Below the pieces are notes generated by a model, which made no database searches, was not told the origin of the DNA, and was given only the letters and a program-made list of their open reading frames with translations. A DNA stretch of 64,000 nt from Ostreococcus lucimarinus (taxonomy: Eukaryota). A program made the translations under genes and the position numbers. Within the stretch, counting starts at the first letter, position 1; each line of letters starts with the position of its first letter. Of this stretch, positions 1 through 64,000 are shown in pieces. The stretch is from the NCBI GenBank assembly GCA_000092065.1, contig CP000595.1; one strand, written 5' to 3'.

Positions 1-1649
1 GTGAGCGATCGAATGACGAAAACCATGTACGGCGGAAGATTGAACCGATAGGCCGTGGAAATCTTCGTCAAATCCAACACGAGCTCGGTGAAGTTGGCTC
101 GCACTTTCGGGTTACCCTCTTCGCCGTCCATGCACACTTCAAACGCGCGCCGGAACTCGTCGTCGGAGATGACTTTCCACGACCCCGGACCGCCTTGCGT
201 GTAATCCGCCTGGTTGCCGTTTTCATCTATCCACATCTGCGGTTCTTGAGGTAACATATCCATTATTCTCAAGTTATCGATCAACTCCCCCCACTGACTG
301 TTCAAAATGTTCAAAATACAATTCGCCATGGCCTCTTGCTGGTCGTCGTCGACGCGGCAAATGAGGCCAAAGTCGAGCAACGCGAGCTTACCGTCGTCGG
401 TGAACAACATGTTCCCTTCGTGCGGGTCAGCGTGCACGAGTCCGGTGCGAAACAACTGCGCGGAAGAACACTCCACTCCCATCTGCACCATGAGCTTTTG
501 CTCTTCCAAGCTGAGCGACTTCATCGGTCGACCTTGAATCCACTGTTGCGTGAGCACCTTCTTCGTCGTCATGTTCGCGTGGTGCCTCGGGACGAAGAGG
601 TAGTCCAAAAATCGCAAAGACTTTCTAAACTCATCCGCGTTGCGCGCCTCGATTGTGTAATCGAGCTCCTGAAAGATCCCGGCGCCTACTTGGTCGACAA
701 TCTTGTCCAAATCCTCCGAGCCGTTGAGCCCGGATTCCTCCACCCAACCGAACCCGAGGCGAATGATGTGCAAATCCAACGCGATCCTCCTCGCCATCCC
801 CGGTCGCTGCACCTTCACCGCCACCTTACTACCATCATGCAACCGTCCAGCGTACACTTGCCCGATGCTCGCCGCCGCGATGGGCTCCGGGCTCAATTCC
901 TTGTACAAACTATACGCCGGTCCCGGCTTGCTCGCGTCTCGCTCGCAAACCGCGCCGTCCCAACTCAACTCTCTCTTAATGATCGCGTGCGCCTCTTCCG
1001 TAGAAAACGGCCCGACTTGATCTTGCAACACCATTAAATTATCCGCCGCCTCCTCACCGATTATATCCGGTCTCGTGCTCAGCGTCTGCGCCATCTTTAT
1101 AAACACCGGTCCCAACCGCGCGATGCCGTCCCGCAGCTTCTTCCCTCGCGTTCGCCGCTCCAAAGGAATCCCCATCCGTTCCTCGTACTGCCACGTCGCG
1201 TACACCCTTCCGATCACCGACAACACCTCCGCCATGCGTCCCGCGAGTTCGGTCGGGCTCTTCGAAAAGTACGCTCCGATATCCAGCATCTTTCGCGTGA
1301 ACGAGTAGTCGCCGCGAAAGTCGAGCACGACGCGCTCCAGCTCGTCTCGCCCCTTCGCGCTCGTCGCCTCCACCGCCGCTCGCGCCTCGCGCTCGAGCGG
1401 TAACAGGGCATCGTTCGCGGCGTCTTCCGACTCCGCGCGCGGGTCCGCGATCGTCCGCGCGCGCGTTTTATCGCCGCGTTTCGTCGCGAACGACGGGCTC
1501 GAGGTTATCCTCTTCGGCGCGCGCGTTCGAGGCGCGCGCGCGCTGACGCGGACGTCTCGAGGGCGCGACGCGGGCGCGCGGGCGCGCGCGTGACGCGCGC
1601 CGGGCTGGGGCGGCGCGCGCGCGCGCGCCGGAGGGACGTGCGCGCGCAT
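1..1649 (-). CDS. ABC1/ADCK (UbiB-family) atypical protein kinase; the C-terminus runs off the left edge of the window
   Basis: This gene is absent from the ORF track because it has no stop codon in the window. My reverse-strand translation is open from the ATG (cat at 1647-1649) down to position 1. It reads ...LGPVFIKMAQTLSTRPDIIGEE...AAASIGQVYAGRLHDGSKVAVKVQRPG...QLFRTGLVHADPHEGNMLFTDDGKLALLDFGLI..., which are the ABC1 kinase signature blocks. The Arg/Ala/Ser/Pro-rich N-terminus looks like an organelle transit peptide. Confidence 0.85.
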   Translation of the reverse strand, partial: MRAHVPPARARAPPQPGARHARARAPASRPRDVRVSARAPRTRAPKRITSSPSFATKRGDKTRARTIADPRAESEDAANDALLPLEREARAAVEATSAKGRDELERVVLDFRGDYSFTRKMLDIGAYFSKSPTELAGRMAEVLSVIGRVYATWQYEERMGIPLERRTRGKKLRDGIARLGPVFIKMAQTLSTRPDIIGEEAADNLMVLQDQVGPFSTEEAHAIIKRELSWDGAVCERDASKPGPAYSLYKELSPEPIAAASIGQVYAGRLHDGSKVAVKVQRPGMARRIALDLHIIRLGFGWVEESGLNGSEDLDKIVDQVGAGIFQELDYTIEARNADEFRKSLRFLDYLFVPRHHANMTTKKVLTQQWIQGRPMKSLSLEEQKLMVQMGVECSSAQLFRTGLVHADPHEGNMLFTDDGKLALLDFGLICRVDDDQQEAMANCILNILNSQWGELIDNLRIMDMLPQEPQMWIDENGNQADYTQGGPGSWKVISDDEFRRAFEVCMDGEEGNPKVRANFTELVLDLTKISTAYRFNLPPYMVFVIRSL

Positions 1650-1764
1650 CCGTCGCGGTCTGACGAAATGTGCAACGTCACGCGCGGTGCGAGGACGAAT
1701 TGGAGGCGAAATCGACGCGAGCGCCGACGGCGGGCGCGATCGATGCGATGCGACGATACAACGG

Positions 1765-3108
1765 CTAAGGATCGATCTTAAGTTTTTTTGGGGTGTCGAA
1801 GACGGCGTCTGATTCGGCGTCGACGCCGGCGGCGGCTTCGCGGGCGGTTTTGGAAGACGGCTTCGACGCGTTTGGTTTCGATTTCGGCGTCGAGCGAGGG
1901 GTGGCGACGCGCTTTGGCGTGCGGAGCTCTGCGGGCAGGGCGTCTCTGACGTGCTTGAGCTCGGCGATGAAGAGAGCGTTGTGGGCCCAGCCGCAGTAAG
2001 GGCCGAAAATTTCCTTCATCTTGACCTCGATCGAGCGCATGACGCGAGGGGTGACGGATTTGGCGTCGCGTAATTCTGGCATGTAGTGCTCGACGGCGAA
2101 TTGCCACACGTGCGTGTCCACTGGGATCGCCTCGTGCTTGTTCAGGGAGAACAAGCACACGCAAGCGGATACTTTGGGACCGATCCCCGGGAGCGTCATC
2201 AGCGCGGCGTGGGCGTCGACGTACGGCGTTTCGTCGCGAAGCGCGCGCAAGAATTCGTCTGGAGAAGAGCCGACGGCGTCGCCCGCCTCCCCCAAAGCCG
2301 CCGCGGAGCCGACGATGAATTTGGCGCGATAACCAAAACCCAACGCTCGTAATTCCTCCTCCGTCGCGCCGTCAAGAATCTGCGCAACGCTCGGAAACGC
2401 ATAAAATTTCTCCGCCTCGGCCGCCGCCGCGGTCTCTTCGCCGCCGTTCTCGTCTCCATCATCATCATCCTCTTCTAAATCCCGCGTCGTCACCGGCAAC
2501 GCGTCTCCGTAGTGTACACACATCTTATTCACCATCCCGTGTATCCTCGAGATGTGATTATTGCTCGAACAAATAAAACTAAACAAGCACTCGCTCGGAT
2601 CCTGCCTTAACATCCGAGCGCCGTCCACGTGCGCCGCGAGCGCTCGAAACCTCCCATCCTTCGCCGCAAACTCCTCGTACAGCCTCTCCAGCGACACGTC
2701 CGCGTTAAAATATTCCCTCATCACCCTTCGATCGTCCGTCGCGCTCTCCCATCGCGGTCGACAGTACACTTTATATTCCACCTCGCCTCGCTCGCCGTCG
2801 TCGACTTCCCGCACTCGCACCACGCGTCGTCCGACGACGCCGACGTACTCTCGTCCGTCCTCGCGACCTCGCGCGCGCCAACGGAAGCTCTGTCCCGTGG
2901 GCAGCGTGTGCTTCAGCCGAAGTTCGCGCGTCGCGAGTCCGAGCGGCGTCCAGGTCGCGTCGAGGCACTTCGCCACGTCGCCGCCGCCGTCGCCGTCGCG
3001 CGCGTCCATCGTCGTCGCGCGCTCGGTCGCGCGCGACGCCGCGCGGCGACGCGCGCTCGGTCGCGCGCGCGCGATCGACCGGGCGAGCGCGAGCGGCCGC
3101 GCGCGCAT
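1765..3108 (-). CDS. OGG1: 8-oxoguanine DNA glycosylase / AP lyase (OGG1, HhH-GPD family)
   Basis: This is ORF 1765..3240 in the track. It contains LRLKHTLPTGQSFRWR (the OGG_N block) and the HhH-GPD block LPGIGPKVSACVCLFSLNKHEAIPVDTHVWQFA. The track start at 3240 is GTG. The first ATG is at 3108 and gives an Arg-rich presequence. A second ATG at 3009 (MDARDG...) is also possible. Confidence 0.85.
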   Translation of the reverse strand: MRARPLALARSIARARPSARRRAASRATERATTMDARDGDGGGDVAKCLDATWTPLGLATRELRLKHTLPTGQSFRWRARGREDGREYVGVVGRRVVRVREVDDGERGEVEYKVYCRPRWESATDDRRVMREYFNADVSLERLYEEFAAKDGRFRALAAHVDGARMLRQDPSECLFSFICSSNNHISRIHGMVNKMCVHYGDALPVTTRDLEEDDDDGDENGGEETAAAAEAEKFYAFPSVAQILDGATEEELRALGFGYRAKFIVGSAAALGEAGDAVGSSPDEFLRALRDETPYVDAHAALMTLPGIGPKVSACVCLFSLNKHEAIPVDTHVWQFAVEHYMPELRDAKSVTPRVMRSIEVKMKEIFGPYCGWAHNALFIAELKHVRDALPAELRTPKRVATPRSTPKSKPNASKPSSKTAREAAAGVDAESDAVFDTPKKLKIDP

Positions 3109-3551
3109 GCGCGTCGGCGTGTGCGACGCACCGCGGTCGCGCGATGAATCGGCAACGGAATCAGCCCGTCGCGACGATCGCGCGCGCGCGTCGTCGTCGT
3201 CGCGCCGACGCGATTCGGAACCGACCGAGACCGCGAACACAAATTTTCGCGAGCCCGACCGCGCGCGCGCGCGCCGACGCGACGCGAGGGCGGTGTTAAC
3301 GCGCGCGCTTTCGCGAGCCTCGCGAAAAGATGGGAAAAACGCACGAAACGGCGCGCTCGAGACGACACACGGCGACGCGCGGTGCGCGACGACGACGAGA
3401 GACGATGCCGGTGGCGCAAATAAAGGTGCGCGCGCGTCGTCGAGCGCGCGTCGTCGAGTGCGCGCGCGTCGTCGTCGACTCGGTGGATTGAACGCGCGTC
3501 GTCTCTGTGCGCCTCGAGACTGACGATTCGTTTCTCGCGAAAATATCGCAG

Positions 3552-3934: not shown

Positions 3935-5284
3935 CTATTCGTGATCGTACTGGTAATCTTCAAAGTCATTGTACATCAGCTTCCCATCCACGTCGCAATG
4001 CACGGCGTCGAAGCAAAGCTTGCAGAAAAAGCTCGGGCTCTCCGCCGCGAGTTTGTCGCCGTACGTGACGTGAGAGCTATCGAACACGCCGCACACGGAG
4101 CATCCTCGTCTATACACGCGCCCTTCGCGAATGACTAAAGGAAACATTTCGTTCCGCGTTTCGTCGTCCGAATGCGGCATGCGCACGTCTCGAACGCGCC
4201 ATTTGTGCTCGCATTTGCCTTGATGCGTCATCACGTACGGGCGCCCAATCGTCAGCGGCACTTGGCTGAACTTCACCCCTTCCATGTCTCGCGCGGTGAA
4301 CCCCTTGCCCTCGTTGTTCATCTTAACCGGCGCTCCCGGCGCCATGAGCGCGTTTTTCTTTTGAAATTCTATGAGATGCTCGGAGTAATCAGTCGCGCCC
4401 GGCGTCCGCATGTCGTTGTAAAACACGCCTTCGATGAAGAGAAATCCATTCTTCGACGGCGGATGCCCCTCGCGCGCGGCTTGGACGTCTCTGAGGCAGT
4501 ATATCATATCCTTGAACGCCGCCAACGGCGTGGACCCGCGCACGATGACGTCCATCAGCAAGTATCCCTGTTTGACCGGGTGATACAGTTCGATCCAAAT
4601 CATCGCCTCCTCCCCCGTCGGCGTCGCCGCGGCGTCGTGGCGAACACCGCCAACCTCGCAATCAAACAGCTCGCGCGCCTTCCACATCACCTGCGTCACG
4701 TCCACTTCTTTTCGCAACAGCGCCCGTTTGTAATCTCTCGCCTCCAATTGCTTATGTTCCAACTCAACCTCCCGCATCGACGCCAACGGTGCCATGGCCG
4801 TCTGCTCGCTCAGATGCTTCGTCATCAACCGCGCTTTCTCCGCCTTCTGCGCCTCCTCCTGAAACGTCAACTGATGATTCTTCGCCCCCGTCCCTCGATG
4901 ATTCCGCGCGCGGCCCGCGTCCTCCTCCACCGACGGCACGCTCGGCATCAACGACTCGATCGCCCGCTCCAGCGTCACCGCGCGATGCGTTTCCATCTCG
5001 ATATCATCCTCCTCGATCGCCGTTCGACGCTTCCGTCCCTTTCCCGCCTTTTTCGTCCTCGCGCTCGCCTCGCGCGCCGCGCTCGACGCCTCCGCCGCGT
5101 CCCGCAACCGTTTCACCGCCCGATGCGCCTCCTCGCAGAACCGTTTCGCGTCCTTCGTCCGCTCGGCCGCTCGCCCGATCGTCAGTCTTCGCTCGCGTCG
5201 CCTCTCCGCGTCGCTCTCGCGCCCTCGCGCGTCCGCGAGCCGCGTCGAAAGATTCGAATTCGCCGTTCGGTCGTCGCACCTCAA
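3935..5284 (-). CDS. SNAPC3: snRNA-activating protein complex subunit 3 homologue (SNAP50 / SRD2-like)
   Basis: The C-terminal block reads CEHKWRVRDVRMPHSDDE...RRGCSVCGVFDSSHVTYGDKLAAESPSFFCKLCFDAVHCDVDGKLMY. This matches the SNAP50 C-terminal zinc-binding domain pattern (C-E-H...C-x-x-C...F-F-C-x-x-C-F...H). The 5' end is uncertain. The track start at 5284 is TTG, and the first in-frame ATG is at 4996. See the finding on the 5' end of this gene. Confidence 0.7.
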   Translation of the reverse strand: MRCDDRTANSNLSTRLADARGRESDAERRRERRLTIGRAAERTKDAKRFCEEAHRAVKRLRDAAEASSAAREASARTKKAGKGRKRRTAIEEDDIEMETHRAVTLERAIESLMPSVPSVEEDAGRARNHRGTGAKNHQLTFQEEAQKAEKARLMTKHLSEQTAMAPLASMREVELEHKQLEARDYKRALLRKEVDVTQVMWKARELFDCEVGGVRHDAAATPTGEEAMIWIELYHPVKQGYLLMDVIVRGSTPLAAFKDMIYCLRDVQAAREGHPPSKNGFLFIEGVFYNDMRTPGATDYSEHLIEFQKKNALMAPGAPVKMNNEGKGFTARDMEGVKFSQVPLTIGRPYVMTHQGKCEHKWRVRDVRMPHSDDETRNEMFPLVIREGRVYRRGCSVCGVFDSSHVTYGDKLAAESPSFFCKLCFDAVHCDVDGKLMYNDFEDYQYDHE

Positions 5285-5532
5285 TCTCCTCTCCCGGCTT
5301 CGCGTGCGGCGCCTCGGGCGGGCAGTGCCGCGCCAGCCGCGCGCGCGACTCCGCGTGGTGTCGCAGCGCGTCGCTCGGGGTGACGATGGTCGTGTCCGCG
5401 ATCGCGCGCGACATCGAGCGCGTCGAGGCGTGACGATCGATGGTCGACGCGGCGCCGATCGTCACCTCGCGACGCGAACTCCCGTCGACGACGCGCGAGC
5501 GACGCGCGACGCGACGCGCGACGACGGCGCGG

Positions 5533-6315
5533 ATGGACGCGAGCGTCGTGCGCCTGGACGCGGCGATCCGCGCGTGGGTGCTGCTGCCGATCACGCTCGC
5601 GATGTTCCTCGTCGGCGCGCTGCGACACCACGCGATGCGACTGACGCGCGACGGCGGCGCGGCGGACGTCGTCGCGCTTCGCGAGGCGAACGTCGCGCGA
5701 CGCGCGGAGCGGTGCCGGCAGTTCGCGGGATACCTGCGACCGGGGGCGTTCGCGGCGAGGCGGACGTTTTACTGCGCGGCGGACGGCGGCGCGCTGCGAA
5801 AGAAGAGCGAAAAAGCGTCGCCGCACGCGGCGATGCTGAGCGATCCGACGGTGATGACGAAAATGATGACGAAGAATGCGATGATGATGGCGCCGAACAT
5901 GCTGACGGCGGCGTGGGTGAATTTTTTCTTCGCGGGATTCGTGGTGGGGCGGACGCCGTTTCCGCTGACGCAGCGGTTTCGGGGGATGCTGCAGCGAGGG
6001 GTGGCGCTGCAGAGCCTGGACGTGACGTACGTGTCGAGCTTGTCGTGGTATTTCTTGAATTTTTTTGGGTTGGGGGGGGTGTTTCAGTTGGTTTTGGGGG
6101 ATAACGAGTTGGACGACGCGGCGGCGATGCAAAACGCGTTCGCGAGCGGGCTCAACGCGGACAAGGCGTTCGCGCACGCGTTGGAGGGGTTGGAGGCGTT
6201 GAAACACGAGTACATGATGCACATCGCCGACGCGCGCGCGACGGCGATGCTGCGCGCGCTGAACGAGGGTAAGAGTCCGCGCGAGGCGAGACTGGCGGCG
6301 GCGGCGGCGCGATGA
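5533..6315 (+). CDS. EMC3: ER membrane protein complex subunit 3 (EMC3 / TMEM111 / Pob family)
   Basis: The residues IRAWVLLPITLAMFLVGALRHH...DPTVMTKMMTKN...NMLTAAWVNFFFAGFVVGRTPFPLTQRFRGMLQRGV...LDVTYVSSLSWYFLNFFGL are collinear with the conserved EMC3 blocks. The ATG at 5533 gives the N-terminal length seen in animal EMC3. An upstream in-frame ATG at 5440 is the alternative start. Confidence 0.8.
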   Translation: MDASVVRLDAAIRAWVLLPITLAMFLVGALRHHAMRLTRDGGAADVVALREANVARRAERCRQFAGYLRPGAFAARRTFYCAADGGALRKKSEKASPHAAMLSDPTVMTKMMTKNAMMMAPNMLTAAWVNFFFAGFVVGRTPFPLTQRFRGMLQRGVALQSLDVTYVSSLSWYFLNFFGLGGVFQLVLGDNELDDAAAMQNAFASGLNADKAFAHALEGLEALKHEYMMHIADARATAMLRALNEGKSPREARLAAAAAR

Positions 6316-6555
6316 AAATCCCAAAGGCTACACTCGCGTCTCCGACGCGCGCGCGCGGCGCGATCGCGAGTAATCGATGTAACTTAGTTTAACTCCATCC
6401 ATCGCGCGTCCGTCGATCGTTCGTTTGGAATCTGTCGCGTCGCGCTCCGCGTCCGCGCCTCGCGCCGTCGCTCGCGCCGCAGTCATCGACGCGCGGCGTC
6501 CGCGCGCGCGCGACGGTCGTCCGCCGTCGTCCGGCGACGCACCGTCGCGGCGTCG

Positions 6556-9270: not shown

Positions 9271-9590
9271 GCGCGCGCGTCGAGTCAAATCCATCGTTCG
9301 TGTCTTTCAATAGCCGTAGCCATAGTTTCTAGCCGTAGCGTGTAGATCGAATTCCGAATTCGAGAACGCGTCTCGCCGCGCGTCTCTCGGTCGCCTCTCG
9401 ACCTCCAGTCACGTCGCTTTCACCACTCGCCCGCGCGTCGCGCGCGCGTCACGCTCGCGCCGACCCGCGCGCGCGACGCACCGTCGAACTCCGCGCCCCT
9501 GGCCGCGTTCTCACGCGCGCGCACCCTCACCGCGCGCGAAAATCCGCCGTTCGTTCGAGTCCAATTCGCGCGGTCGAATCGAGTTTCAAA

Positions 9591-53700: not shown

Positions 53701-56700
53701 CGAACAAGGGTGACTTGACGTTCAACACCGCCACCGGACAGTTTGATTATGCCCCGTATCCAAACATGATCGGCGACGACAGATTCGTGTACTTTACGTG
53801 GGATGGATACACCGGTCCAAACGAACGCCCGTTGCAGTCGAAATACGCCACTGTAGAGATTCGCATCGGCAACGGCGAGACGAATCCCGTGGCGCAAGAT
53901 ATTAACGTCGATGTGTGGGAGAACTCTGCTGAGTATTTCACGTTCAGCGCCACCGATGCAGATTCCACCAACACGGAGATGACGAACGATATTCTTCGAT
54001 ATCAAATCTTTGAAGAACCGGAGCTGAATGTTGCGGGTATTCAGCTTGACACTCAGCAAATGAGTGGAGGGAAGCGATATTCCGAAAATGCAACGTTCCA
54101 GTACACGGCGTTCTCGAGTTCTGATCTCGTCAGGCGCGTGTCAGAGCGTATGGCGAACTACGGCACCAACTTCGATTTCAACACTCTTGCGCGAGAAAAT
54201 CATCCGGGATTCAACGTGACGTCCTTCAAATATGTCGCTATCGATTTATCTGGTCGCGTTTCCAACGTCGCAAACGCCTGGGTCTGGGTTCGACTCACCT
54301 CAGAGACGAATTCTCGACCGAGTGCCAACGCGATGACGTTCACCACGCCTGAATCTGTCGGCGTGGCGAGCAATTTCGACACGGCGGATTCCGAATCCCC
54401 GTTGCAACTGAGACACACGCTCCCATCGCTCGCGTTACAGCCGACGCTCGGCGTCGCTGCGCAAGTCGGTATCGCTGCCTCACCCTACGGCAAGGCGTTC
54501 ACATATGAACCGTTTCCATTCTATTACGGCGTTGATGTGTTCGAATACCTCGTCACCGATCCACACGGGTCTACTTCTGATCTCACCACTATCACCGTCA
54601 CGGTCTCGCAAGTCGATCAGCCGCCACAAGGCGCATGCGGAGTGAACTCTACTCTTAAGTCCTCAGCCGATCCGACGTACGATCTCAAAGGACGAACGGC
54701 GGAACTGAGCGTGCTCATGGGTTATCAAATTATCCGCGCCAAGACGATGCGATATTTGATCAATCCCGAGCGAAGAGACTTGGAGTTTTACAATTACTTG
54801 CCCTTTATCAATGATTTGTCCAAGTTTGACAGCGTCATCGATCATCAAAATATATTTTTGTCATGTGGGTCGACTTCAGCTTTGACAACGGCTGCTATTT
54901 ATCACGACCAAGTGACCGCGGTGGCGCTCTTGGCGTACGATGTCGACCAAGCTGTGAACGACACAATACGGTACGTACTAAGTGAACTGCCGACTATAGC
55001 GTCGTCAGATGCAGCACGAGGTACAGCTGGGTACGCTGGTACTCTTTATCGATACGTCGCCCCGAATGGCACATATTACAACTCCACCGGGACGACAGTG
55101 TACTCTTACACATCAGATTCCGTCACCGGACTCACGCCGCTCGCCGCTGGTGATACCATCGGTGACGCCGCGAATGGGGCTGTAATGCTGCTTTTCAAGC
55201 CTCGAGAATACATCCACGGACCAATCACGTTCAAATGGCATGCGGTAGATACAACGACGTCGGCGCGAGGCGACGACGTCGCGATGACAATCAGTGCCAT
55301 GTGCAGAGGAGGTGAAAGCGTCAACGCTGACCATGGAGAAACGTGCGATTTGTGCCCAGTTGGTTCATTCAACTCGGCGAACATAGCCGATCAACAAAGC
55401 TGCGTGCAGTGCCCGGCGGGGAGTTACACCTCCGCCACGGGCTCGACTATTTGCGTGCCATGTCCCGCGGATACGTACGCGAGCACCGCCGGATCGCAAG
55501 TCTGTACACCATGCCCAGCGAACACGCGTTCACCATCAGGAAGCGACGACGTTTCAGATTGCCTGTGCGATATCGGTTTTGTCGTTTCGAACAGCCCGCA
55601 GTGCCATCCTTGCGCGCTCGATCGCGTCAAATGTACCGAACTCGGTCAGTACACACCTCTTCCGTACGATGGATTTTGGCAAGATAGCACAAATGGAAAA
55701 CGAAACCTCACCTGTATCCCGGGCTTGGCTTGTCAAGAGAAGTTTGATAAGGACGAAGTACGCACTGGTGCATGTGCGCAACCTCGGTTCTACGCCAATA
55801 ATGTGACAAATTCTCCCGCGTACGTCGGAGATGGTTGCTCAAAGTGTGCGAAAGATCACTATCGTTACGCGTCCTTCTGCGAAGCGTGTGACCCAGTGCA
55901 AGAAGTAAGAATCTTCTTCGTGATACTGGCGTACTGCGTTGCGCTTTACGCCATGTTCGAACTCGCAACACACCCAGCTATTCCTTCTTTGACGATTTTG
56001 CTGTCATTCACGCAAATCACTGCTCAAATGCAGTACTTTGAAATTCCGTGGCCGAAAGCGCTCGCGCGTTGGATGCAAGTCGCGTCGCTCGCCGTGGCAG
56101 ACTTACAAATCCTTGGTTTAGATTGCGTTTCGACCTGGGACTACTTCACGCGATTCGCGACGACCATGTTCGCACCTTTTGTTTGGGTGTTCGTCCTCGG
56201 CATCGCCATCATTTTACGCTGCTGGAGAGAGATTGCGAATCAAGCTTATGCGAACGTGCAGCGACGGCGACTGATTGAGCGTCGAAGACTGCTCCACGAA
56301 TTTGACGTCGACGCCAAAAAATGGACTGATCTCGCCATCGCTCGCGATGGGTTACCGTTTGATCGCCCCGATTTGAAGGGCAAAGGAGACGACTACAACG
56401 CACTTGAGCTGCATCTGTACGGCAATACTAAAAACGAAGGGTTGCGAAAAAGAGTCTTCAAAGAGGGCGTCGAAGAGTTACGCAAGGCGGATTTGCGGGC
56501 GAAAAGCTCGCAAGAACAGTCCAAGACTGAGCGAAAGCTGAGGCAAACCAAGGATGAAATAGAAGAGCTCGAAAAGCAAAAGGCTGTGAGCGCCAGAATC
56601 ATCCGGGATAACGTCAACCGCGCCATTCCTTCGCTCGTCATCGTCATGTGGTGGGGTTACATGCTCTTGAGCCGCACCGCGATCGAGTACTTTGAATGCA

Positions 56701-58742: not shown

Positions 58743-58902
58743 TCGTCATCAAACAAAGTTCAATTATTAATTTACCCCACTAGCGGCGCTTGGGATCACG
58801 ACATTAGCGCCTTGATCCTTGTTATAACGCACCACAGTTATACCGCGCCGACGCGCCGCACACGCCGCCTCGCTCGACGCACCCGATGGCGTGAATCCCG
58901 GA

Positions 58903-61900
58903 ATGTCGCCCCCCACGCTCGACGCCGCGCTTCGTCGCAACGCACGCGAGCGCCCGAGCGCCATCGCGTGCGTCCTCGTCCCGAACGCGCGCGAGAAGAA
59001 CCGAAAGTGCTTCTTCACTTGGGACGAGTTACACGGCGTCGTCGACGCCCTCGCGCGCGTCTTGCGCGCCGACCGCCATCCGCGCGTTCTGAGCTTTTGT
59101 CGCGACGGCGTCGAGGCGTTCGTGGCGCTGCACGCGTGCGCGCGGGCGCGGAAGAGTTTGGTGAACGTGGACGCGGCGACGCCGGCGAGCAGGATTCGGG
59201 ACGTCGCGCGGGACGCGAACGCGACGACGTGTCTGTGCGCGAACGACGGCGATGAAGACTCGGTAAAATCGGTGTTAGGAGAAGACGGTGTCGCGGTGCG
59301 CGTGTGGGAGGTGATTAATGCGGGCGCGGAGGCGATCGAGGCGGAAGAGGACGAGACGCGAGAGGACGACGAAATTTGGATTGCGTACACGAGCGGGACG
59401 ACGGGAAAATGCAAGGGCGCCGCGGCGACGCATCGACGCGCGATGGCGTACGCACGGGCGAAGTGTGAGGTGGAAGAGATCGACGCGTGCTCGCGGGTGT
59501 GCTTGGCGTCGAACGCGACGTTCGATTTGTGGCACGGCGACGCGTGCGCGGCGGCGGCGGCGGGCGCCGCCGTCGTCGTCGCGTCTCGCGCGACTTTTCA
59601 ACACGATTTCGCGAGAGTGTTGCGAGAGGGCGAAGTCACGCACGTGTGTTGCACGCCGACGATGTTCTCGCTGGCGCGACTTCCGCGTGGGATCGTGGAC
59701 GCACCGAAGTTGCGATGCGTATCGCTGGCGGGGGAGCGCATGCGCGAGAGCACAATCGCACTATGGGCCGACGACGTGGCGTTGTACAACGTGTACGGTG
59801 CCACGGAAACGACTGTGGTGCAAACGTACGCAAGAATGCGCAATGCAGAAGACGAAAGCACGAATCGGGCGGGGAAAGCGTACGAAGGATTTGCCAGCGT
59901 GTTCGTCGTGGATGAAATGCGCGAAGGCGAATTGGCGGTGCAATCCTTCGCGCAGAGACGCGGCGTCGAAGGCGAAGTTGCCATCGGCGGTATTTGCGTC
60001 GCAGACGGGTATTTGAACGACCCCGAACGCACGGCACGTGCGTTCGTTCACTCACCATTCGGTACCGTCTATCTCACGGGCGATCGCGGGTACATCGATG
60101 ACGCAGGCGATTTGTATTTGCGCGGTAGACTCGATCGCCAAGTCAAGATTCGCGGTCATCGCGTCGAGTTGGATGAAATCGAAGCCGCGCTTCGTTCGTG
60201 CCCCGCACTATGCGACGACGCCGTCGTGTTCTACGATGCCAATGAGGGAGTGCTGACTTCCCACGCACGAGCAGCTTCGCCGACGTTCGACGCGTCGAGC
60301 GATGCAGATTTATACGCGTTCGCGCTCGAACGCGTCGTCGAGCTACGATTGCCGCGACACATGGTGCCTCGTCGACACGTCTTCATCGAGCACGCGCGAT
60401 GGCCTTTGACTTCGAGTGGAAAAACGAATCGTCAGATACTGCTTCAATGGTTTGCGAGCGGCGAGACGAAGGCGTTTCGACCTAAGCGTGAGAAACCGCA
60501 AGCGGGATTGGAAACAGTCGTCGCGAACGCTTGGGCTGTCGCGCTGGGGCACGGCGACGCGAGCGATATCGGCGCCCTCGACGCGTTCGATGCGCTCGGT
60601 GGAACCTCACTCAACGTTCTCGCAGTTTCAAAAGCGCTGGCGAGCGACGACGGAATCGTGCGCTCGCGCGATACCGCGCGTGGCGAAATTGTGCGCGAAG
60701 CGCGAATTGGTTTACGCGACGGCGAAGCTGCGGCGCTGCTCAACGACGGCGAAGAACCCGCGGCGTGCGCGTTCGACGTCATCGACGGCCCGTTCGCACC
60801 GTGCGAAATATTCGCGAGACCCGTGCTTCGCGATTACGTTGATTATTTGCGAGCGCAAGGTATAGACGCCGACGTGAACGCTCCCGCGTCCACCGCCGTC
60901 GAGCCACAGCGAGATACATCTGCGAATCGTCGCATGCTCGCGGCGTGCGGTCGCGGCGTCGCCCCCGTCGTTCGCGCTTTGCTCGCGACCGGCGTCGAAG
61001 CATCGGGCGAGCACCTTCGAGCCGCCGCCGCGAGCCTCGCCGACGAAGCCGTGGACGTAGTGCAAACTTTACTCGCCGCCGGTGCGGATGCAAGTTCATC
61101 ATCCGCCACAGCCGGTACGCTCGCGACGCACGTCGCCGCCGCTCGCGGGAACTCTGAAATGTTAGAAATGTTGCTCGCCGCCGGCGCTCCAGCGGGAGCG
61201 AAGGACGCGGATAAGCAAACGATTTGTCACTTAGCAGTGCGGAGCGGGGATGTGAGTACCGTGCGCGTCGCGGCAAACGCGTGTAAACACTTGAAGACAC
61301 GCAAAGGTGGCTTGGAGTCGTGGGATCGTTGGAAGCGCACGCCCGCAGCGTGGGCGCTCGTCGCGGGATCGAGTGAAATTTTAGCCGAGTTGCGAGATGC
61401 CGGGGCGAATTTAACATCGCTTGAAACTGACGTCTCCAACGCCTGGGTGCACGGTTCGCTGAGCGCAAAGAGCGAGGTGCAGTTGGCGCATCGCCCGGTT
61501 CGCAAGCGAGGTGCCGCGGCGGAGGTGTTGAGCGCGCTCGCGGCTAGATTGGACGCCGCAAACGTCGAGAGCGAACGTATTGAAGCGGCGACGGCGATTC
61601 GCGAGCTCGTGTGCGCAAACGCAGAGAATCGAGAAAAGGCGCGAACGATCGGTTTGGTGCCAAAACTGTGCGAACTCGCGCGCGATCGTCACTGCGTTGA
61701 AGCCATCGGCGCGTTGAGAAATTTAGCCACCAACACGAGCGCGGCAGGGGCGGCTGGCGACGCCGGAGCTATGGAAATCCTCGGTGATGTCATTCGCGCT
61801 CGTGCTAAATTAAAAGACAGCGAGCTGAGTGCTGACGATAGGCGAGTAGTGTACGCTGCGGCGAGCGCGATGCGCGCGTTGGCGGTGAAGCACGACGCGA

Positions 61901-61977
61901 ATGCCGCGCGATTGCGCGCGTCGAGAGACGTCGCGGACGTCGTCAGTCGATTGTGCGAAGGCATGCGATTAGAGTAG
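58903..61977 (+). CDS. NRPS-like adenylation (A) and thiolation (T/PCP) didomain enzyme fused to ankyrin and armadillo-like repeats
   Basis: The track start at 58891 is GTG, and the first ATG is at 58903. The A-domain core motifs are IAYTSGTTGKCKG (A3), NVYGATETTV (A5), YLTGDRGY (A7), GRLDRQVKIRGHRVELDEIE (A8) and LTSSGKTNRQ (A10). The T-domain motif is FDALGGTSLNVLAVSKAL. The ankyrin repeats include TLATHVAAARGNSEMLEMLLAAGAPAGAKD. The C-terminus reads as ARM/HEAT-like helical repeats. I recognised no C, TE or R domain. Confidence 0.85.
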   Translation: MSPPTLDAALRRNARERPSAIACVLVPNAREKNRKCFFTWDELHGVVDALARVLRADRHPRVLSFCRDGVEAFVALHACARARKSLVNVDAATPASRIRDVARDANATTCLCANDGDEDSVKSVLGEDGVAVRVWEVINAGAEAIEAEEDETREDDEIWIAYTSGTTGKCKGAAATHRRAMAYARAKCEVEEIDACSRVCLASNATFDLWHGDACAAAAAGAAVVVASRATFQHDFARVLREGEVTHVCCTPTMFSLARLPRGIVDAPKLRCVSLAGERMRESTIALWADDVALYNVYGATETTVVQTYARMRNAEDESTNRAGKAYEGFASVFVVDEMREGELAVQSFAQRRGVEGEVAIGGICVADGYLNDPERTARAFVHSPFGTVYLTGDRGYIDDAGDLYLRGRLDRQVKIRGHRVELDEIEAALRSCPALCDDAVVFYDANEGVLTSHARAASPTFDASSDADLYAFALERVVELRLPRHMVPRRHVFIEHARWPLTSSGKTNRQILLQWFASGETKAFRPKREKPQAGLETVVANAWAVALGHGDASDIGALDAFDALGGTSLNVLAVSKALASDDGIVRSRDTARGEIVREARIGLRDGEAAALLNDGEEPAACAFDVIDGPFAPCEIFARPVLRDYVDYLRAQGIDADVNAPASTAVEPQRDTSANRRMLAACGRGVAPVVRALLATGVEASGEHLRAAAASLADEAVDVVQTLLAAGADASSSSATAGTLATHVAAARGNSEMLEMLLAAGAPAGAKDADKQTICHLAVRSGDVSTVRVAANACKHLKTRKGGLESWDRWKRTPAAWALVAGSSEILAELRDAGANLTSLETDVSNAWVHGSLSAKSEVQLAHRPVRKRGAAAEVLSALAARLDAANVESERIEAATAIRELVCANAENREKARTIGLVPKLCELARDRHCVEAIGALRNLATNTSAAGAAGDAGAMEILGDVIRARAKLKDSELSADDRRVVYAAASAMRALAVKHDANAARLRASRDVADVVSRLCEGMRLE

Positions 61978-62014
61978 ATATATGTAGCGAAACTATAGCG
62001 TCTATTGAAACAAT

Positions 62015-64000
62015 TTAGCAAATTTGCGCACGCGTTTGAAGCAAGACGATGCGATCGCCCACGACGGCGCCTTCGATGTCTTGCGGCGAGCCTCGATAGC
62101 TCTCCACCGACTTGGCGATGTCGGAGATTCGTCTAATCATCGCTTCGCGCGCGAGGGAGTTCCACACGATAGACGACGCGGTGTAGTCCACCACGCGTTC
62201 TTCCGTAGGCTCGGCGGTGATGCTGTCGTAGAGACCAGCGCCGGCGAAATTTTCCAAGTCTTCACCGTTCGAGTCGCTTCTCGCGATGACGGTACCGCCG
62301 GATGGCGCAAAGTGCCCGCAGAGCTTACTCGGAAGCGAACGAAGCGTGACCTCACCCGTTGTCTTGCTCACCGTAAATCCGAGCGCACTACCAGCGTCGT
62401 TACCGACCAAAGTTTCCCCGAGACCGACGCAAATCTCACCAAAGATTTCATCCGCGTCGCCGGTGACAGGGTTGGCGGTGTGCACCACGAAGGCGAATTC
62501 GGCGTCCACGAGTTCCATGAGAAGCACGGCGACGTTGAGATCCTTGTCGTCGATGCCGCAGGATTTACGCGACAACCACGCACGCTCTGTCCATTTTGAC
62601 GCCCATACACCGCAAACGGCGTCCCAGAGTCGCGGGAGGTCGACGGATGGTGAAAGCTTCGCCGCCGCTTCGTCGAGCGCGGATTCCAAACCTTGCGGGC
62701 ACACGAGACGGGTGGCGATGATTTCTCGCGCATCCGCGAGCGCCGCACGGCGGTCTTCGGCGGTAGTCGCTGTCTCAATGGCGGCAACGGCTGCTTCGAG
62801 CGCAGTACGAGTGTCGACGTCTTCCTCGAGGGCGCGTTCAAAGGTGCCAAATGGAAGCGCGTACGATCCTGGCACGTCGACGTTCGCAATGTTCATTGCG
62901 GCGAGTTCCTTGGCCATTTCCGAAAGACTGTTGCTCTTGCCGCCGACAATATCGCTGCTGTACGCGTCAGGAGTAATCAGCCACGCGTCAGAGGGCTTGT
63001 AAGGGGCGATAGACACCTTGGTCGTCGCCTTGGCGCTCGCCGTCGTCGTCGCGTCGGAGACGTTGGCTTTATCAATCTGCACATCTTCACCCGCGATAGA
63101 GAATCGCACGTTTTCACCCGCCATCTCTAGGACTTTGTTCCAAAGTACGTCATCTGCGACGCTCGCGAGAAGCACGTTCGTGTTTCTCGCTCGAATGGCG
63201 ATGTGACTGAGCAGATCGACCGGCGCCTTGGTGACGACGGCCTTGACGCCCGCGGGAATGTCTTCCAACCCACCGAGCGTTTCGGTGAAGCAAACCATGG
63301 GAGTGGACGAAAAATCTTCGCCTTGAATCTCACTGAGCGTTTGAACTTTCGCCATCCCGGCGTACGTCTCGAGGCTGGCGTCGCCGACGCTGACAATTTG
63401 CCAAGGCGAGCGACCCGCGGCGGCTCGAACCGCCGGACGAAGCGTCGAAATCAATTGCGAGACGACAAACAGGCTGTGTGAGCGCACGTTTTCTTCCCCA
63501 AAGTTGATCAAGTACTTGGGATCAGCCTTGGTGGACTTAGACGCGATGATATCTGCAGCGTTTTGCGTAGCGCGGCACAAAAAGTCCATATCGCTCTCCA
63601 TGGCGAGAGCGCAGAAATCGAGCGCGGCGTCCATGGTCTTCGACCAGTCCGCGCCCCAGCGTTCGCCGTGACCGTCACCCATGGCGACTTGGAGAAATTT
63701 TAAGCCCTCGCCGATGCGCGTGGACTCGTTCGTCAGCGCGACGTTCGTCAAAGAAAGCTCGAGAAGCGAAAGCAAATCATCCGAGGACATTGCGCCGTAA
63801 TCGACGGCTTCCACCTTGGTTCTGAAAAACTTTTCCAACGTCGCGTCGAGCATGACGACGTCTCGGTTCGGGCTGTCGTGTTGCCAAACTCCGAGAAGCT
63901 TCTTACGAACTTCGATAATTTTCCCCGGCACCCACCACGCGTCGCGGTTTTGCAGCAAATCGTCCACCTCCCACGCCAAGTCGCCGGGCAAACCGTTTCT
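62015..64000 (-). CDS. GWD: Alpha-glucan (or phosphoglucan), water dikinase, C-terminal part; the N-terminus lies beyond the right edge of the window
   Basis: The phosphohistidine swivel motif is AVVTKAPVDLLSHIAIRARNTNVLLASV. The nucleotide-binding (PPDK_N-like) blocks include VGGKSNSLSEMAKEL...VDVPGSYALPFGTFE and NGEDLENFAGAGLYDS...PQDIEGAVVGDRIVLLQTRAQ. The frame is still open at position 64000. Confidence 0.85.
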   Translation of the reverse strand, partial: RNGLPGDLAWEVDDLLQNRDAWWVPGKIIEVRKKLLGVWQHDSPNRDVVMLDATLEKFFRTKVEAVDYGAMSSDDLLSLLELSLTNVALTNESTRIGEGLKFLQVAMGDGHGERWGADWSKTMDAALDFCALAMESDMDFLCRATQNAADIIASKSTKADPKYLINFGEENVRSHSLFVVSQLISTLRPAVRAAAGRSPWQIVSVGDASLETYAGMAKVQTLSEIQGEDFSSTPMVCFTETLGGLEDIPAGVKAVVTKAPVDLLSHIAIRARNTNVLLASVADDVLWNKVLEMAGENVRFSIAGEDVQIDKANVSDATTTASAKATTKVSIAPYKPSDAWLITPDAYSSDIVGGKSNSLSEMAKELAAMNIANVDVPGSYALPFGTFERALEEDVDTRTALEAAVAAIETATTAEDRRAALADAREIIATRLVCPQGLESALDEAAAKLSPSVDLPRLWDAVCGVWASKWTERAWLSRKSCGIDDKDLNVAVLLMELVDAEFAFVVHTANPVTGDADEIFGEICVGLGETLVGNDAGSALGFTVSKTTGEVTLRSLPSKLCGHFAPSGGTVIARSDSNGEDLENFAGAGLYDSITAEPTEERVVDYTASSIVWNSLAREAMIRRISDIAKSVESYRGSPQDIEGAVVGDRIVLLQTRAQIC

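What the first reader, a model, noticed from the sequence alone, without database searches (positions are those of the whole stretch)
1..64000. Strong local compositional structure: CGCG-saturated gene 5' ends and spacers against markedly less GC-rich interiors of long genes
Seen qualitatively, without computation: promoters and first-codon regions are dominated by (CG)n and GCGCGC runs. Examples are 1500-1640, 3000-3500, 5300-5560, 16080-16240, 18340-18620, 25580-25800 and 35560-35800. In contrast, the interiors of RBR (about 19200-21500), giant gene A (about 27400-34500) and giant gene B (about 38000-58500) look far more balanced. The only AT-rich islands are short and sit in promoters or 3' ends (12313-12520, 14670-14800, 35490-35575, 58743-58800, 61978-62014). 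Inference: this may reflect GC-biased gene conversion or CpG-island-like promoters. The alternating CG runs are also potential Z-DNA formers. The same GC level generates the many long spurious antisense ORFs in the track.
Basis: seen in the sequence. Interest (0 to 1): 0.25.

Follow-up and report, generated by a model that had tools for sequence, protein, structure and literature searches.

The report
CpG-rich, G-skewed gene starts in Ostreococcus
In this stretch of the tiny green alga Ostreococcus lucimarinus, almost every gene begins inside a roughly 1-kb zone packed with CG dinucleotides and with extra G on the coding strand, resembling animal CpG-island promoters; this is a real, genome-typical background feature, not a special element.

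Summary
The window is Ostreococcus lucimarinus CCE9901 nuclear DNA: 18-19 mostly intronless genes, GC 58.9%, CpG o/e 1.60.

**What is there**
- The zone -100..+300 around start codons has GC 0.71 against 0.59 in gene interiors (15 of 17 genes; 0 of 5000 rotations reach it). CpG/bp is 0.24 against 0.14.
- A gene-blind HMM finds 16 CpG-dense segments of 0.1-1.7 kb. Thirteen span a start codon, and 16 of 17 starts are covered.

- The synonymous-site signal is not a general GC rise. At 4-fold sites that cannot form CpG, GC is unchanged (0.66 against 0.65). NCG codons rise from about 0.55 to about 0.88.
- The sense strand becomes G-rich at +200..+800: GC skew is +0.20 (16 of 17 genes) and G-runs outnumber C-runs 5:1. 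The skew flips sign across divergent promoters.
- Three other Ostreococcus-like lineages share the skew (26 of 26 genes).

**Reading**
- This strand asymmetry argues against plain GC-biased gene conversion. It fits a transcription-start-linked, CpG-island-like domain laid over the known CG-enriched, DNMT5-methylated Mamiellales genome.
- Giant-gene interiors look balanced because they are the only DNA lying more than 1 kb from a start.
- The feature is ordinary for this lineage and of modest interest.

The parts
1301..1900 (.). CpG-dense segment over the ABC1-kinase gene start (ATG 1649, minus strand); it also reaches the OGG1 3' end
   Evidence: HMM on CpG counts, GC 0.70, CpG/bp 0.232. ABC1 Pfam hit. 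Longest (CG)n run, 16 nt, at 1613-1628.
2751..3500 (.). CpG-dense segment over the OGG1 start (3108, minus). It probably acts as a shared divergent promoter with a 106-aa ORF at 3552-3872 (plus).
   Evidence: The interval 3000-3500 has CpG o/e 2.10 and 25% of bases in alternating runs. A CG-unit length polymorphism occurs at 3259.
4901..5850 (.). CpG-dense segment over the divergent SNAPC3 (minus) and EMC3 (plus) starts
   Evidence: Plus-strand GC skew goes from -0.37 at 4600 to +0.38 at 6000.
6101..7600 (+). CpG-dense segment over the VPS41 start (6556)
   Evidence: Sense-strand skew at +200..+800 is 0.28. G-cluster motif at 6915-6942.
9151..10100 (+). CpG-dense segment over the g305 start (9849)
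10551..11300 (+). CpG-dense segment over the g522 start (10744)
12551..12950 (+). CpG-dense segment over the ALS start (12637, the Met49 of the ORF, giving the 677-aa length seen in related contigs)
15401..16350 (-). CpG-dense segment over the Mpv17 start (16073)
   Evidence: A 21-bp indel polymorphism containing (CG)5 occurs at 16094.
17751..19050 (.). CpG-dense segment over the divergent starts of the furin-repeat gene (minus, 18338) and RBR (plus, 18397). It contains 40-bp and 33-bp tandem arrays.
   Evidence: Plus-strand skew goes from -0.19 to +0.30.
22251..23050 (+). CpG-dense segment over the g330 start (22367), with a 15-bp x 4.5 tandem array
24501..26200 (-). CpG-dense segment over the g721 start (25576); it extends into the giantA 3' end
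34901..36250 (.). CpG-dense segment over the divergent giantA (minus) and giantB (plus) starts. It includes an AT-rich TATA/telobox patch at 35472-35579 and a 30-bp tandem array at 35646-35726.
   Evidence: Plus-strand skew goes from -0.31 at 34800 to +0.41 at 36200.
58851..59800 (+). CpG-dense segment over the start of the AMP-binding/ankyrin gene (58903)
59951..61150 (+). CpG-dense segment inside the AMP-binding/ankyrin gene, not at a start (exception)
   Evidence: CpG/bp 0.180, the weakest of the segments.
26584..27327 (-). 99-bp x 7.5 near-perfect tandem array inside the giantA coding sequence. It accounts for the only CpG-dense segment that lies far from a start.
   Evidence: TRF 99% matches. 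33-aa CPNC...CPRC unit. NCG fraction 0.89 in codons 2750-3000.
27400..34500 (-). giantA interior: low-CpG, lower-GC coding DNA lying more than 1 kb from any start
   Evidence: GC 0.53, CpG o/e 1.35. NCG fraction about 0.4. Pfam hits Big_9, Cadherin_4 and Ephrin_rec_like.
38000..58500 (+). giantB interior: low-CpG, lower-GC coding DNA, with the NCG fraction drifting from about 0.5 down to 0.34-0.40 along the gene
   Evidence: GC 0.55, CpG o/e 1.46. Per-bin table. Pfam hits.
12320..12539 (.). AT-rich island: g522 3' end plus ALS promoter
   Evidence: GC 0.38. AAACCCTA at 12503.
14649..14831 (.). AT-rich island in the convergent 3'|3' spacer between ALS and Mpv17
   Evidence: GC 0.38
23354..23434 (.). 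AT-rich island in the convergent 3'|3' spacer between g330 and g721
61949..62051 (.). AT-rich island in the convergent 3'|3' spacer between the AMP-binding gene and the glucan-water-dikinase gene
36000..36600 (+). Example of a sense-strand G-rich block with G-clusters, downstream of the giantB start
   Evidence: Skew 0.24-0.41. G-cluster motifs with a 40%-G extension at 36053 and 36320.

Best explanation
The window is a gene-dense stretch of an Ostreococcus lucimarinus CCE9901 chromosome. Nearly every gene start lies in a promoter-proximal compositional domain of roughly 0.4-1.7 kb, which has two parts.

(i) A strand-symmetric core runs from about -120 to +200 of the start codon. It has GC 0.7-0.8 and is saturated with CpG and short (CG)n runs. 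It covers the promoter, the 5' UTR and a poorly conserved N-terminal stretch.

(ii) A transcribed block runs from about +200 to +800. Here the sense strand is G-rich (GC skew about +0.2, G-runs about 5:1 over C-runs) and NCG codons are close to fixed.

This domain sits on top of a genome-wide CpG excess: o/e is 1.35-1.6 even in gene interiors. That excess is the published hallmark of picoalgae that methylate nucleosome linkers with DNMT5.

Inferred: the domain is maintained by a process tied to transcription initiation and early elongation. It is a CpG-island-type promoter architecture with GC skew, acting through selection or biased repair linked to 5' chromatin, methylation state or R-loops. 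Context-blind GC-biased gene conversion is not the main cause.

The giant genes look 'balanced' because their interiors are the only DNA in this compact genome that lies more than 1 kb from any start.
For: **Organism.** ALS and EMC3 are 100% identical to CCE9901 proteins.

**5' enrichment.** GC 0.709 against 0.59 and CpG/bp 0.238 against about 0.14; 0 of 5000 rotations reach this. Gene-blind CpG-dense segments cover 16 of 17 starts.

**Synonymous sites.** After a C, the 4-fold site is G in 0.90 of cases near the 5' end against 0.60 in interiors, in 12 of 12 genes (p = 0.0005). At non-CpG-context sites GC is 0.66 against 0.65 (p = 0.97), but G is 0.52 against 0.30 and C is 0.14 against 0.34. 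C before G is unchanged.

**Strand asymmetry.** Sense GC skew at +200..+800 is +0.20 (16 of 17 genes, 0 of 5000 rotations) against +0.07 further downstream. The sign flips across all three divergent promoters examined. G-runs of 3 or more occur at 20.0 per kb against 4.3 per kb for C-runs; in interiors the figures are 8.3 and 7.4. R-loop-type G-cluster motifs number 12 sense against 2 antisense within 1 kb of starts.

**Conservation.** Three diverged syntenic lineages (VPS41 59-70% identical) show the same skew in 26 of 26 genes and the same NCG-only gradient, with G-runs of 3 or more outnumbering C-runs 15-19.5 against 3.6-5.5 per kb.

**Coding constraint.** The shift also occurs in constrained coding sequence. 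Residues 81-200 are 68% conserved against 71% for the rest.

**CpG behaviour.** CpG excess persists in interiors and in AT-rich spacers (o/e 1.35-2.5). There is no excess of CpG transitions among population SNPs.

**Literature.** Linker methylation by DNMT5 in Mamiellales is reported via PMC5082852 and PMC5728721. CG enrichment in Ostreococcus is reported via PMC11884799, citing Huff and Zilberman 2014. GC-skewed unmethylated CpG-island promoters that form R-loops are described in PMC3787257.
Against: - No methylation, nucleosome, TSS, expression or R-loop data could be examined, so the mechanistic step is inference from composition alone.
- Start codons are inferred as the first ATG, and several true starts probably lie further downstream. 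Part of the 'first 50 codons' may therefore be untranslated.
- Only 17 genes in the window, 3 more just outside it, and 26 in related lineages were analysed.
- A more distant relative (L015, GC 0.68) lacks the pattern, so it is not universal in the order.
- GG and CC dinucleotides are depleted overall (o/e 0.54 in the zones), which differs from mammalian R-loop-forming islands.
- Tandem repeats and indels concentrate in the zones. That could instead point to recombination.
Confidence: 0.55

Rival explanations
1. GC-biased gene conversion from recombination hotspots at promoters. Repair of heteroduplex DNA favours G/C alleles near gene starts, raising GC there. Giant-gene interiors, far from any hotspot, drift towards the AT-biased mutational equilibrium.
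For: The mutational equilibrium GC in Ostreococcus is far below the observed GC (36.8% against 59% in O. tauri), and gene conversion is invoked for that gap (PMC5455958). The strand-symmetric GC-rich core around the start carries no skew. Four of five tandem arrays and 9 of 11 indel blocks lie in the 5' zones. The homogenised 99-bp array in giantA is CpG- and GC3-rich. GC declines slowly with distance along giantB.
Against: At 4-fold sites that cannot form CpG, GC does not differ between the 5' end and interiors (0.66 against 0.65, p = 0.97). The same holds in three other lineages. The synonymous shift is strand-asymmetric, with G up and C down. The giantB 3' end, next to the neighbouring promoter, shows no GC rise. 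The SNP test had too little power, with 47 clean SNPs.
Confidence: 0.2
2. Differential decay of methylated CpG. Gene bodies are methylated and lose CpG to TpG/CpA, while unmethylated 5' ends keep theirs, as with vertebrate CpG islands.
For: TpG/CpA o/e is 1.00 in interiors but 0.64 in the zones. A after C and T before G at 4-fold sites are more common in interiors. Mamiellales do methylate CpG (PMC5082852; 22% of CpGs in O. lucimarinus standard regions per 10.1101/2025.04.21.649811).
Against: CpG is over-represented everywhere: o/e is 1.35-1.6 in interiors and about 2 in the zones. Escape from decay cannot give values above 1. CpG transitions are not over-represented among SNPs (5 at 5195 CpG bases against 26 at 10795 other bases). 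Minor alleles that make a CpG (13) outnumber those that destroy one (8). This model does not explain the G-over-C skew at non-CpG sites. PMC11884799 cites Huff and Zilberman 2014 for CG enrichment in this genus and suggests that CG methylation there need not raise cytosine mutability.
Confidence: 0.1
3. Protein-level cause. N-terminal targeting peptides and low-complexity Ala/Arg-rich extensions are encoded by GCG/CGC codons, which read as CGCG runs.
For: Ala plus Arg make up 36% of the first 50 codons against 14-18% in interiors. CGCGCG reads as Ala-Arg or Arg-Ala in either frame that holds whole codons, on both strands. N-terminal presequences are visible in ALS, ABC1 and OGG1.
Against: Synonymous sites shift most: G3 is 0.45-0.52 against 0.29-0.33, and GCG accounts for 81% against 48% of Ala codons. 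Non-coding divergent spacers are the most CpG-dense DNA in the window (GC 0.84-0.88, CpG/bp 0.36-0.375). The first 80 residues are poorly conserved (43% identity). Annotated models trim them, so part of this 'protein' is probably untranslated.
Confidence: 0.1
4. Selection at the mRNA or translation level for G-ending codons in the first 250 or so codons, as a 5' codon 'ramp' or an RNA-structure requirement.
For: G3 enrichment is confined to the sense strand and to the first 250 or so codons.
Against: The untranscribed or untranslated core is also CpG-saturated. GC of 0.72-0.79 around the start codon runs against the usual trend of weak mRNA structure at initiation sites (stated from general knowledge, not tested here). 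No expression data were available.
Confidence: 0.08

Closest known systems
[quoted passage not shown] 2013, PMC3787257)
   Same: CpG-dense segments of about 1 kb sit on gene starts. Sense-strand G exceeds C just downstream, and the skew flips sign at bidirectional promoters. G-clusters lie on the non-template strand.
   Different: Here the background is itself CpG-rich (o/e about 1.5), so the islands represent an excess rather than an escape from depletion. GG and CC dinucleotides are depleted overall. Methylation state and R-loops are unknown for these loci. Methylation in this lineage is DNMT5-dependent and linker-specific.
CG-enriched, DNMT5 linker-methylated genome architecture of Mamiellales and other picoalgae (Huff and Zilberman 2014, Cell 156:1286, as cited in PMC5728721, PMC5082852 and PMC11884799)
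   Same: Same species. CpG is over-represented throughout, including in interiors and AT-rich spacers. There is no sign of CpG hypermutability in SNPs.
   Different: That work, as far as I could read it second-hand, concerns the genome-wide CG excess and its periodic methylation. The extra 5' enrichment and the strand skew are a regional layer on top of that. I found no nucleosome-scale periodicity of CpG in the sequence itself.
5'-to-3' GC3 gradients along plant genes, steepest in grasses, with recombination gradients and gene conversion among the proposed causes (PMC4684703, PMC4316631)
   Same: GC3 falls from 0.80-0.83 in the first 200 codons to 0.62-0.71 further in.
   Different: Here the gradient is confined to G-ending, mainly NCG, codons. 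Non-CpG 4-fold GC is flat. The genes have no introns that could structure the gradient.
Z-DNA-forming d(CG)n tracts
   Same: There are alternating C/G runs: 91 of 8 nt or more and 14 of 12 nt or more, concentrated at the 5' ends.
   Different: The runs are short, at most 16 nt. The conformation cannot be tested here.

Membership tests
CpG island (sequence definition: at least 200 bp, GC at least 0.5, CpG o/e at least 0.6) | Length, GC and CpG o/e thresholds | tested here: met
   All 16 segments pass except the 100-bp one at 12101-12200, but so does the whole window (GC 0.59, o/e 1.60). The classical thresholds therefore do not discriminate here. The segments were defined relative to local background with a two-state HMM (10.5 against 5.75 CpG per 50 bp).
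CpG island promoter | Coincidence with transcription starts | tested here: met
   Thirteen of 16 segments span an inferred start codon, and 16 of 17 starts are covered while the segments occupy 23% of the window. True TSSs are not known.
CpG island promoter | Unmethylated state against a methylated background | not testable with these tools
   Bisulfite data for this strain exist (SRR847306, named in 10.1101/2025.04.21.649811) but cannot be mapped here.
GC-skewed (R-loop-class) CpG-island promoter | Positive sense-strand GC skew just downstream of the start, with a sign flip at bidirectional promoters | tested here: met
   +0.20 at +200..+800, in 16 of 17 genes; 0 of 5000 rotations reach it. 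Flips at three divergent pairs. Conserved in 26 of 26 genes of three related lineages.
GC-skewed (R-loop-class) CpG-island promoter | R-loop formation in vivo | not testable with these tools
   Only sequence proxies are available. G-runs of 3 or more occur at 20.0 against 4.3 per kb. My own simplified G-cluster and 40%-G scan gives 12 sense against 2 antisense matches within 1 kb of starts.
GC-biased gene conversion tract | W-to-S enrichment at neutral sites regardless of context and strand | tested here: not met
   GC at non-CpG-context 4-fold sites is 0.66 (5' end) against 0.65 (rest), p = 0.97. G rises while C falls.
GC-biased gene conversion tract | W-to-S alleles segregating at higher frequency; association with recombination rate | tested here: inconclusive
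   There are 47 clean SNPs among 10 metagenome contigs and no outgroup. No recombination map is available.
Plant-type 5'-3' GC3 gradient | GC3 declines with distance from the start codon | tested here: met
   GC3 is 0.80-0.83 in the first 200 codons, 0.69-0.71 at codons 300-1000 and 0.62-0.66 beyond.
DNMT5 linker-methylation genome architecture | CpG over-representation genome-wide | tested here: met
   CpG o/e is 1.60 for the window, 1.35-1.6 in interiors and 1.55-2.5 in AT-rich spacers.
DNMT5 linker-methylation genome architecture | Clustered methylation at nucleosome spacing | not testable with these tools
   The sequence alone shows no CpG periodicity at 100-300 bp. This does not address methylation.
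Z-DNA-forming sequence | Alternating purine-pyrimidine d(CG)n tract long enough to flip under supercoiling | tested here: inconclusive
   Fourteen runs of 12 nt or more, longest 16 nt. The threshold in vivo is unknown and the conformation is not testable.

The most novel reading that the evidence does not exclude
Ostreococcus has evolved its own version of the CpG-island promoter. In this reading, a CpG-saturated core plus a G-skewed, R-loop-prone first kilobase at almost every gene sets the local methylation state and the phase of the tightly packed, linker-methylated nucleosome array. The domain would be kept by selection, or by a transcription-coupled repair bias, against an AT-biased mutation pressure. 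That would make it a functional element rather than a by-product of composition.
Probability: 0.2. Interest if true: 0.55.

Novelty: new member of a known kind. Interest (0 to 1): 0.28.

Why it matters
For anyone annotating this genome, the pattern has three practical consequences:
- It explains the many long false ORFs.
- It marks gene starts almost one-to-one.
- It warns that N-terminal Ala/Arg-rich 'peptides' may be untranslated CG-rich DNA.

For genome evolution, it shows that the steep 5' compositional gradient in a picoalga is specific to G-ending, mostly NCG, codons and is strand-asymmetric. That separates it from the gene-conversion explanation among those proposed for plant GC gradients. 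It links the gradient instead to the unusual CG-enriching, linker-methylating chromatin system of this lineage.

Public bisulfite, MNase and RNA data for this very strain could settle the question quickly.

Tried and rejected
**Nucleosome-scale periodicity of CpG.**
- Periodograms of the giant-gene interiors gave no peak above the block-shuffle 95% bound.
- Chunk-averaged autocorrelation over the window gave a maximum z of 2.6 against a null 95% bound of 2.7.
- Both results are negative.

**Population test for W-to-S or CpG-gain bias.**
- I used 10 marine-metagenome contigs that are 99.6-99.9% identical to window 1-16315.
- After removing N-gaps and a misaligned cluster at 16202-16230, only 47 SNPs remained. 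There is no outgroup, so the test is too weak.
- SNP density is about 3.8 per kb in the zones against 2.4 per kb elsewhere, which is not clearly different.

**Polarised substitutions between species.** The nearest other lineages have only 59-70% protein identity in VPS41. Synonymous sites are saturated at that distance, so I did not attempt this.

**An internal promoter in giantA at 26601-27300.** Rejected. The segment is a 99-bp tandem array in frame.

**Simple strand-symmetric dinucleotide preferences as the source of the G3 rise.** Rejected. G also rises before a following G, which makes a disfavoured GG, while C before G does not rise.

**Rfam and tRNA scans of the window.** Nothing found.

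**Huff and Zilberman 2014.** The paper could not be read. Its content is cited only through papers that quote it. I therefore cannot say whether it already describes the 5' enrichment.

Full report
**What the window is**

The ORF map and Pfam hits give a compact, essentially intronless eukaryotic gene array. It includes an ABC1 kinase, OGG1, SNAPC3, EMC3, VPS41, acetolactate synthase, an Mpv17-family gene and a furin-repeat protein. It also includes a retinoblastoma-related protein, an AMP-binding/ankyrin protein and a glucan-water dikinase. Two divergent giant genes of 3246 and 7684 codons complete it.

The window's ALS and EMC3 proteins are 100% identical to the Ostreococcus lucimarinus CCE9901 RefSeq proteins, which lie on a 468-kb record. 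Overall GC is 58.9% and CpG o/e is 1.60. CC/GG (0.63-0.67) and TA (0.57) are depleted.

**Checking the observation**

  - The seven 'CGCG' intervals have GC 0.66-0.83 and CpG/bp 0.23-0.31, with 14-43% of bases in alternating C/G runs of 6 or more.
  - The three interiors have GC 0.53-0.57 and CpG/bp 0.09-0.13, with 0.2-1.1% of bases in such runs.
- The enrichment is systematic across 17 genes with first-ATG starts.
  - The -100..+300 zone has GC 0.709 against about 0.59 in the rest of each gene (15 of 17 genes).
  - CpG/bp there is 0.238 against about 0.14.
  - None of 5000 rotations of the gene map reaches either value.
  - The meta-profile falls to a plateau by about +600 to +800.
- Without any gene model, a two-state HMM on CpG counts finds 16 dense segments of 0.1-1.7 kb, covering 23% of the window. 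Thirteen span a start codon and 16 of 17 starts are covered.
- Alternating C/G runs of 8 or more number 91, against 37 under a global and 69 under a local first-order Markov model. Seventy per cent lie within -200..+500 of a start, and the longest is 16 nt.
- Spacers holding a 5' end mostly have GC 0.62-0.88, with three lower exceptions (0.38, 0.54 and 0.55). The two convergent 3'|3' spacers measured have GC 0.35-0.39.
- The first 100 bases after stop codons average GC 0.51.
- Three further genes just outside the window, read from a 99.9%-identical contig, behave the same way.
- Two caveats apply.
  - The named AT-rich islands are real but not unique. At a 60-bp, GC < 0.40 threshold there are 42 patches, and most sit inside the giant genes.
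  - First-ATG starts are approximate. Annotated models trim the CG-rich N-termini. A TATAAATA at 35500-35507 suggests that giantA really starts at Met64.
- The link to spurious ORFs holds. Twenty-seven of 33 non-gene ORFs of 200 aa or more lie largely in the dense segments, where stop triplets are 2.4-fold rarer.

**What the signal is made of**

Both the protein and the synonymous layers contribute.

- Ala plus Arg make up 36% of the first 50 codons against 14-18% deeper in. GC at 4-fold sites is 0.83-0.88 in the first 200 codons against 0.64-0.75 beyond codon 300.
- Splitting 4-fold sites by context is decisive.
  - After a C, G is used in 0.86-0.89 of cases near the 5' end against 0.53-0.59 in interiors (12 of 12 genes, p = 0.0005).
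  - Where no CpG can be formed, GC is unchanged (0.66 against 0.65, p = 0.97).
  - At those same sites G rises (0.52 against 0.30, 11 of 12 genes) and C falls (0.14 against 0.34).
  - C before a following G, which would also create a CpG, does not rise (0.65 against 0.65).
- The synonymous shift is therefore towards G on the sense strand, strongest after C. It is not a general GC shift.
- At the DNA level this appears as a sense-strand GC skew.
  - Skew is +0.17 to +0.23 at +200..+800 (16 of 17 genes positive; 0 of 5000 rotations reach the mean of +0.20).
  - Further downstream it is +0.07, and it is about zero in the -120..+200 core.
- On the plus strand the skew flips sign across all three divergent promoters examined. 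For example, it goes from -0.31 at 34800 to +0.41 at 36200.
- Sense-strand runs of G of 3 or more occur at 20.0 per kb against 4.3 per kb for C in this block. In interiors the figures are 8.3 and 7.4.
- A simplified R-loop-forming-sequence scan of my own gives 12 sense against 2 antisense matches within 1 kb of starts.
- Between zones and interiors, CpG o/e is 1.80 against 1.51, GpC 1.21 against 1.10, CC/GG 0.54 against 0.68 and CA/TG 0.64 against 1.00.

**The giant genes**

Their interiors are ordinary coding DNA: Big_9/cadherin-like, ephrin-receptor-like and EGF domains, plus an ion-transport domain near the giantB C-terminus.

At equal distance from the start (codons 250-1000) they do not differ from normal genes. 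NCG is 0.56-0.57 against 0.44-0.67, and GC3 is 0.65-0.70 against 0.64-0.77. They look 'balanced' because they contain the only DNA lying more than 1 kb from a start.

NCG drifts further down along giantB, from about 0.5 to 0.34-0.40.

The one dense segment deep inside giantA (26601-27300) is a 99-bp x 7.5, 99%-identical tandem array. It encodes a 33-aa CPNC...CPRC unit.

**Comparative evidence**

Syntenic contigs carry VPS41 homologues of 70%, 65% and 59% identity.

- CpG is raised at the 5' end in 5 of 6, 9 of 10 and 9 of 10 genes respectively.
- Pooled NCG is 0.74-0.78 against 0.50-0.65.
- Non-CpG GC4 is flat.
- Sense skew is +0.19 to +0.25 in 26 of 26 genes.
- The G-run to C-run asymmetry is 15-19.5 against 3.6-5.5 per kb.

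A distant relative (30% identity, GC 0.68, CpG o/e 1.32) shows none of this.

Protein identity over the first 80 residues is 43%, against 68% for residues 81-200 and 71% beyond. The CGCG core is therefore weakly constrained, or not translated at all. The G3/NCG block lies in normally constrained coding sequence. Because synonymous sites between these lineages are saturated, the shared pattern implies a persistent regional force.

**Population evidence**

Ten marine-metagenome contigs are 99.6-99.9% identical to window 1-16315.

- Nine of 11 indel blocks fall in 5' zones, which make up 39% of the bases. They include a CG-unit change at 3259 and a 21-bp indel containing (CG)5 at 16094.
- Four of the five tandem arrays in the window are also in 5' zones.
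- Only 47 clean SNPs remain.
  - CpG transitions are not over-represented: 5 at 5195 CpG bases against 26 at 10795 other bases.
  - Minor alleles that make a CpG (13) outnumber those that destroy one (8).
- This is weak evidence, but it runs against CpG hypermutability.

**Interpretation**

Three points come from the literature.

- O. tauri has a GC-to-AT mutation bias, with an equilibrium GC of 37% against an observed 59%. Selection or gene conversion is invoked to explain the gap (PMC5455958).
- Mamiellales methylate CpG in nucleosome linkers with DNMT5 (PMC5082852 and PMC5728721).
- Ostreococcus is CG-enriched rather than depleted, and one study suggests that CG methylation there need not raise cytosine mutability (PMC11884799, citing Huff and Zilberman 2014).

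The genome-wide CpG excess seen here is therefore known. The extra 5' layer resembles GC-skewed CpG-island promoters (PMC3787257). It also resembles the 5'-3' GC3 gradients of plants (PMC4684703), but it differs from those in being G- and CpG-specific.

A strand-blind W-to-S bias cannot give flat non-CpG GC4 together with a G-over-C skew that flips at divergent promoters. Gene conversion alone is therefore not supported, although it may contribute to the symmetric core. Escape from methyl-CpG decay cannot give o/e values near 2.

I conclude that this is a transcription-start-linked, CpG-island-like domain. The anatomy is shown; the mechanism is inferred. Candidate mechanisms are chromatin or methylation state, R-loops, transcription-coupled repair bias, or selection.

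**Limits**

- No methylation, nucleosome, TSS, expression or recombination data could be used.
- Gene starts are inferred.
- The sample is 20 genes in this species and 26 in relatives.
- Huff and Zilberman 2014 could not be read directly, so I cannot say whether the 5' enrichment is already described there.

**Verdict**

'CpG-island-like promoters' is a fair label, and 'gBGC' is not the best cause. The feature is a background property of the genome rather than a discrete element, so interest is modest.

Noticed in passing
window 26584-27327 (minus-strand gene): A 99-bp x 7.5 tandem array with 99% matches lies in frame within the 3246-codon gene. It encodes repeats of a 33-aa unit, [33 protein letters not shown] (paired CxxC motifs, zinc-ribbon-like). 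It is unusually CpG- and GC3-rich (GC3 0.86) compared with its surroundings (about 0.6). Its near-perfect identity implies recent expansion or homogenisation.
   Followed up: partly
window 12503-12510 (+) and 35538-35545 (-); TATAAATA at 35500-35507: The plant telobox-like octamer AAACCCTA occurs only twice in 64 kb. Both copies lie inside the two AT-rich promoter patches, one upstream of ALS and one between the two giant genes. The expected count is 0.33, and 6 of 100 shuffles reach 2. A canonical TATA sequence sits about 30 bp from the second copy.
   Followed up: partly
window 25891-35631 (-) and 35688-58742 (+): Two intronless giant genes of 3246 and 7684 codons are transcribed divergently. 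The stretch between their likely true starts is at most about 400 bp. Both carry bacterial-Ig/cadherin-like and ephrin-receptor-like cysteine-rich domains. The larger ends with an ion-transport domain, so it looks like a huge surface receptor/channel-type protein.
   Followed up: partly
window 3552-3872 (+): A 106-aa ORF has a weak ubiquitin-family match (E = 0.006, below the Pfam cut-off). It is called at the same syntenic position in every related contig. It lies head-to-head with OGG1, which makes the 3000-3500 CGCG zone a divergent promoter.
   Followed up: partly
window 18275-18391, 18403-18511, 22390-22457, 35646-35726: Short tandem arrays (40, 33, 15 and 30 bp units) sit in the CG-rich 5' zones. 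The 33-bp array encodes SIDARRPSRRR repeats at the RBR N-terminus, and the 15-bp array encodes NPTTT repeats. Indel polymorphisms among metagenome contigs are concentrated in the same zones.
   Followed up: partly
window 21811-22461 and 22367-23359 (+): Two same-strand ORFs overlap by 95 bp. The upstream one (signal-peptide-like N-terminus, no Pfam hit) is the only gene start without a CpG-dense segment. The dense segment sits at the start of the downstream ORF. The gene models here are uncertain.
   Followed up: no
window 3935-5284 (-): The SNAPC3 start is ambiguous. The first ATG is codon 97 of the open frame, and relatives are called at 353-509 aa. The open frame upstream may be untranslated CG-rich DNA, or there may be a small 5' intron.
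   Followed up: no
L002-L011 (marine metagenome contigs, including Tara Oceans): Contigs 99.6-99.9% identical to the first 16 kb of the window recur in many ocean metagenomes. This O. lucimarinus genotype is therefore widespread, and population data for it are available in public assemblies.
   Followed up: partly
L015 (18-kb metagenome contig, VPS41 30% identical): This is a partly syntenic locus (ABC1, OGG1, VPS41, ALS) from a more GC-rich relative (GC 0.68, CpG o/e 1.32). It lacks both the 5' NCG gradient and the sense-strand GC skew, so the architecture is not shared by all relatives.
   Followed up: partly
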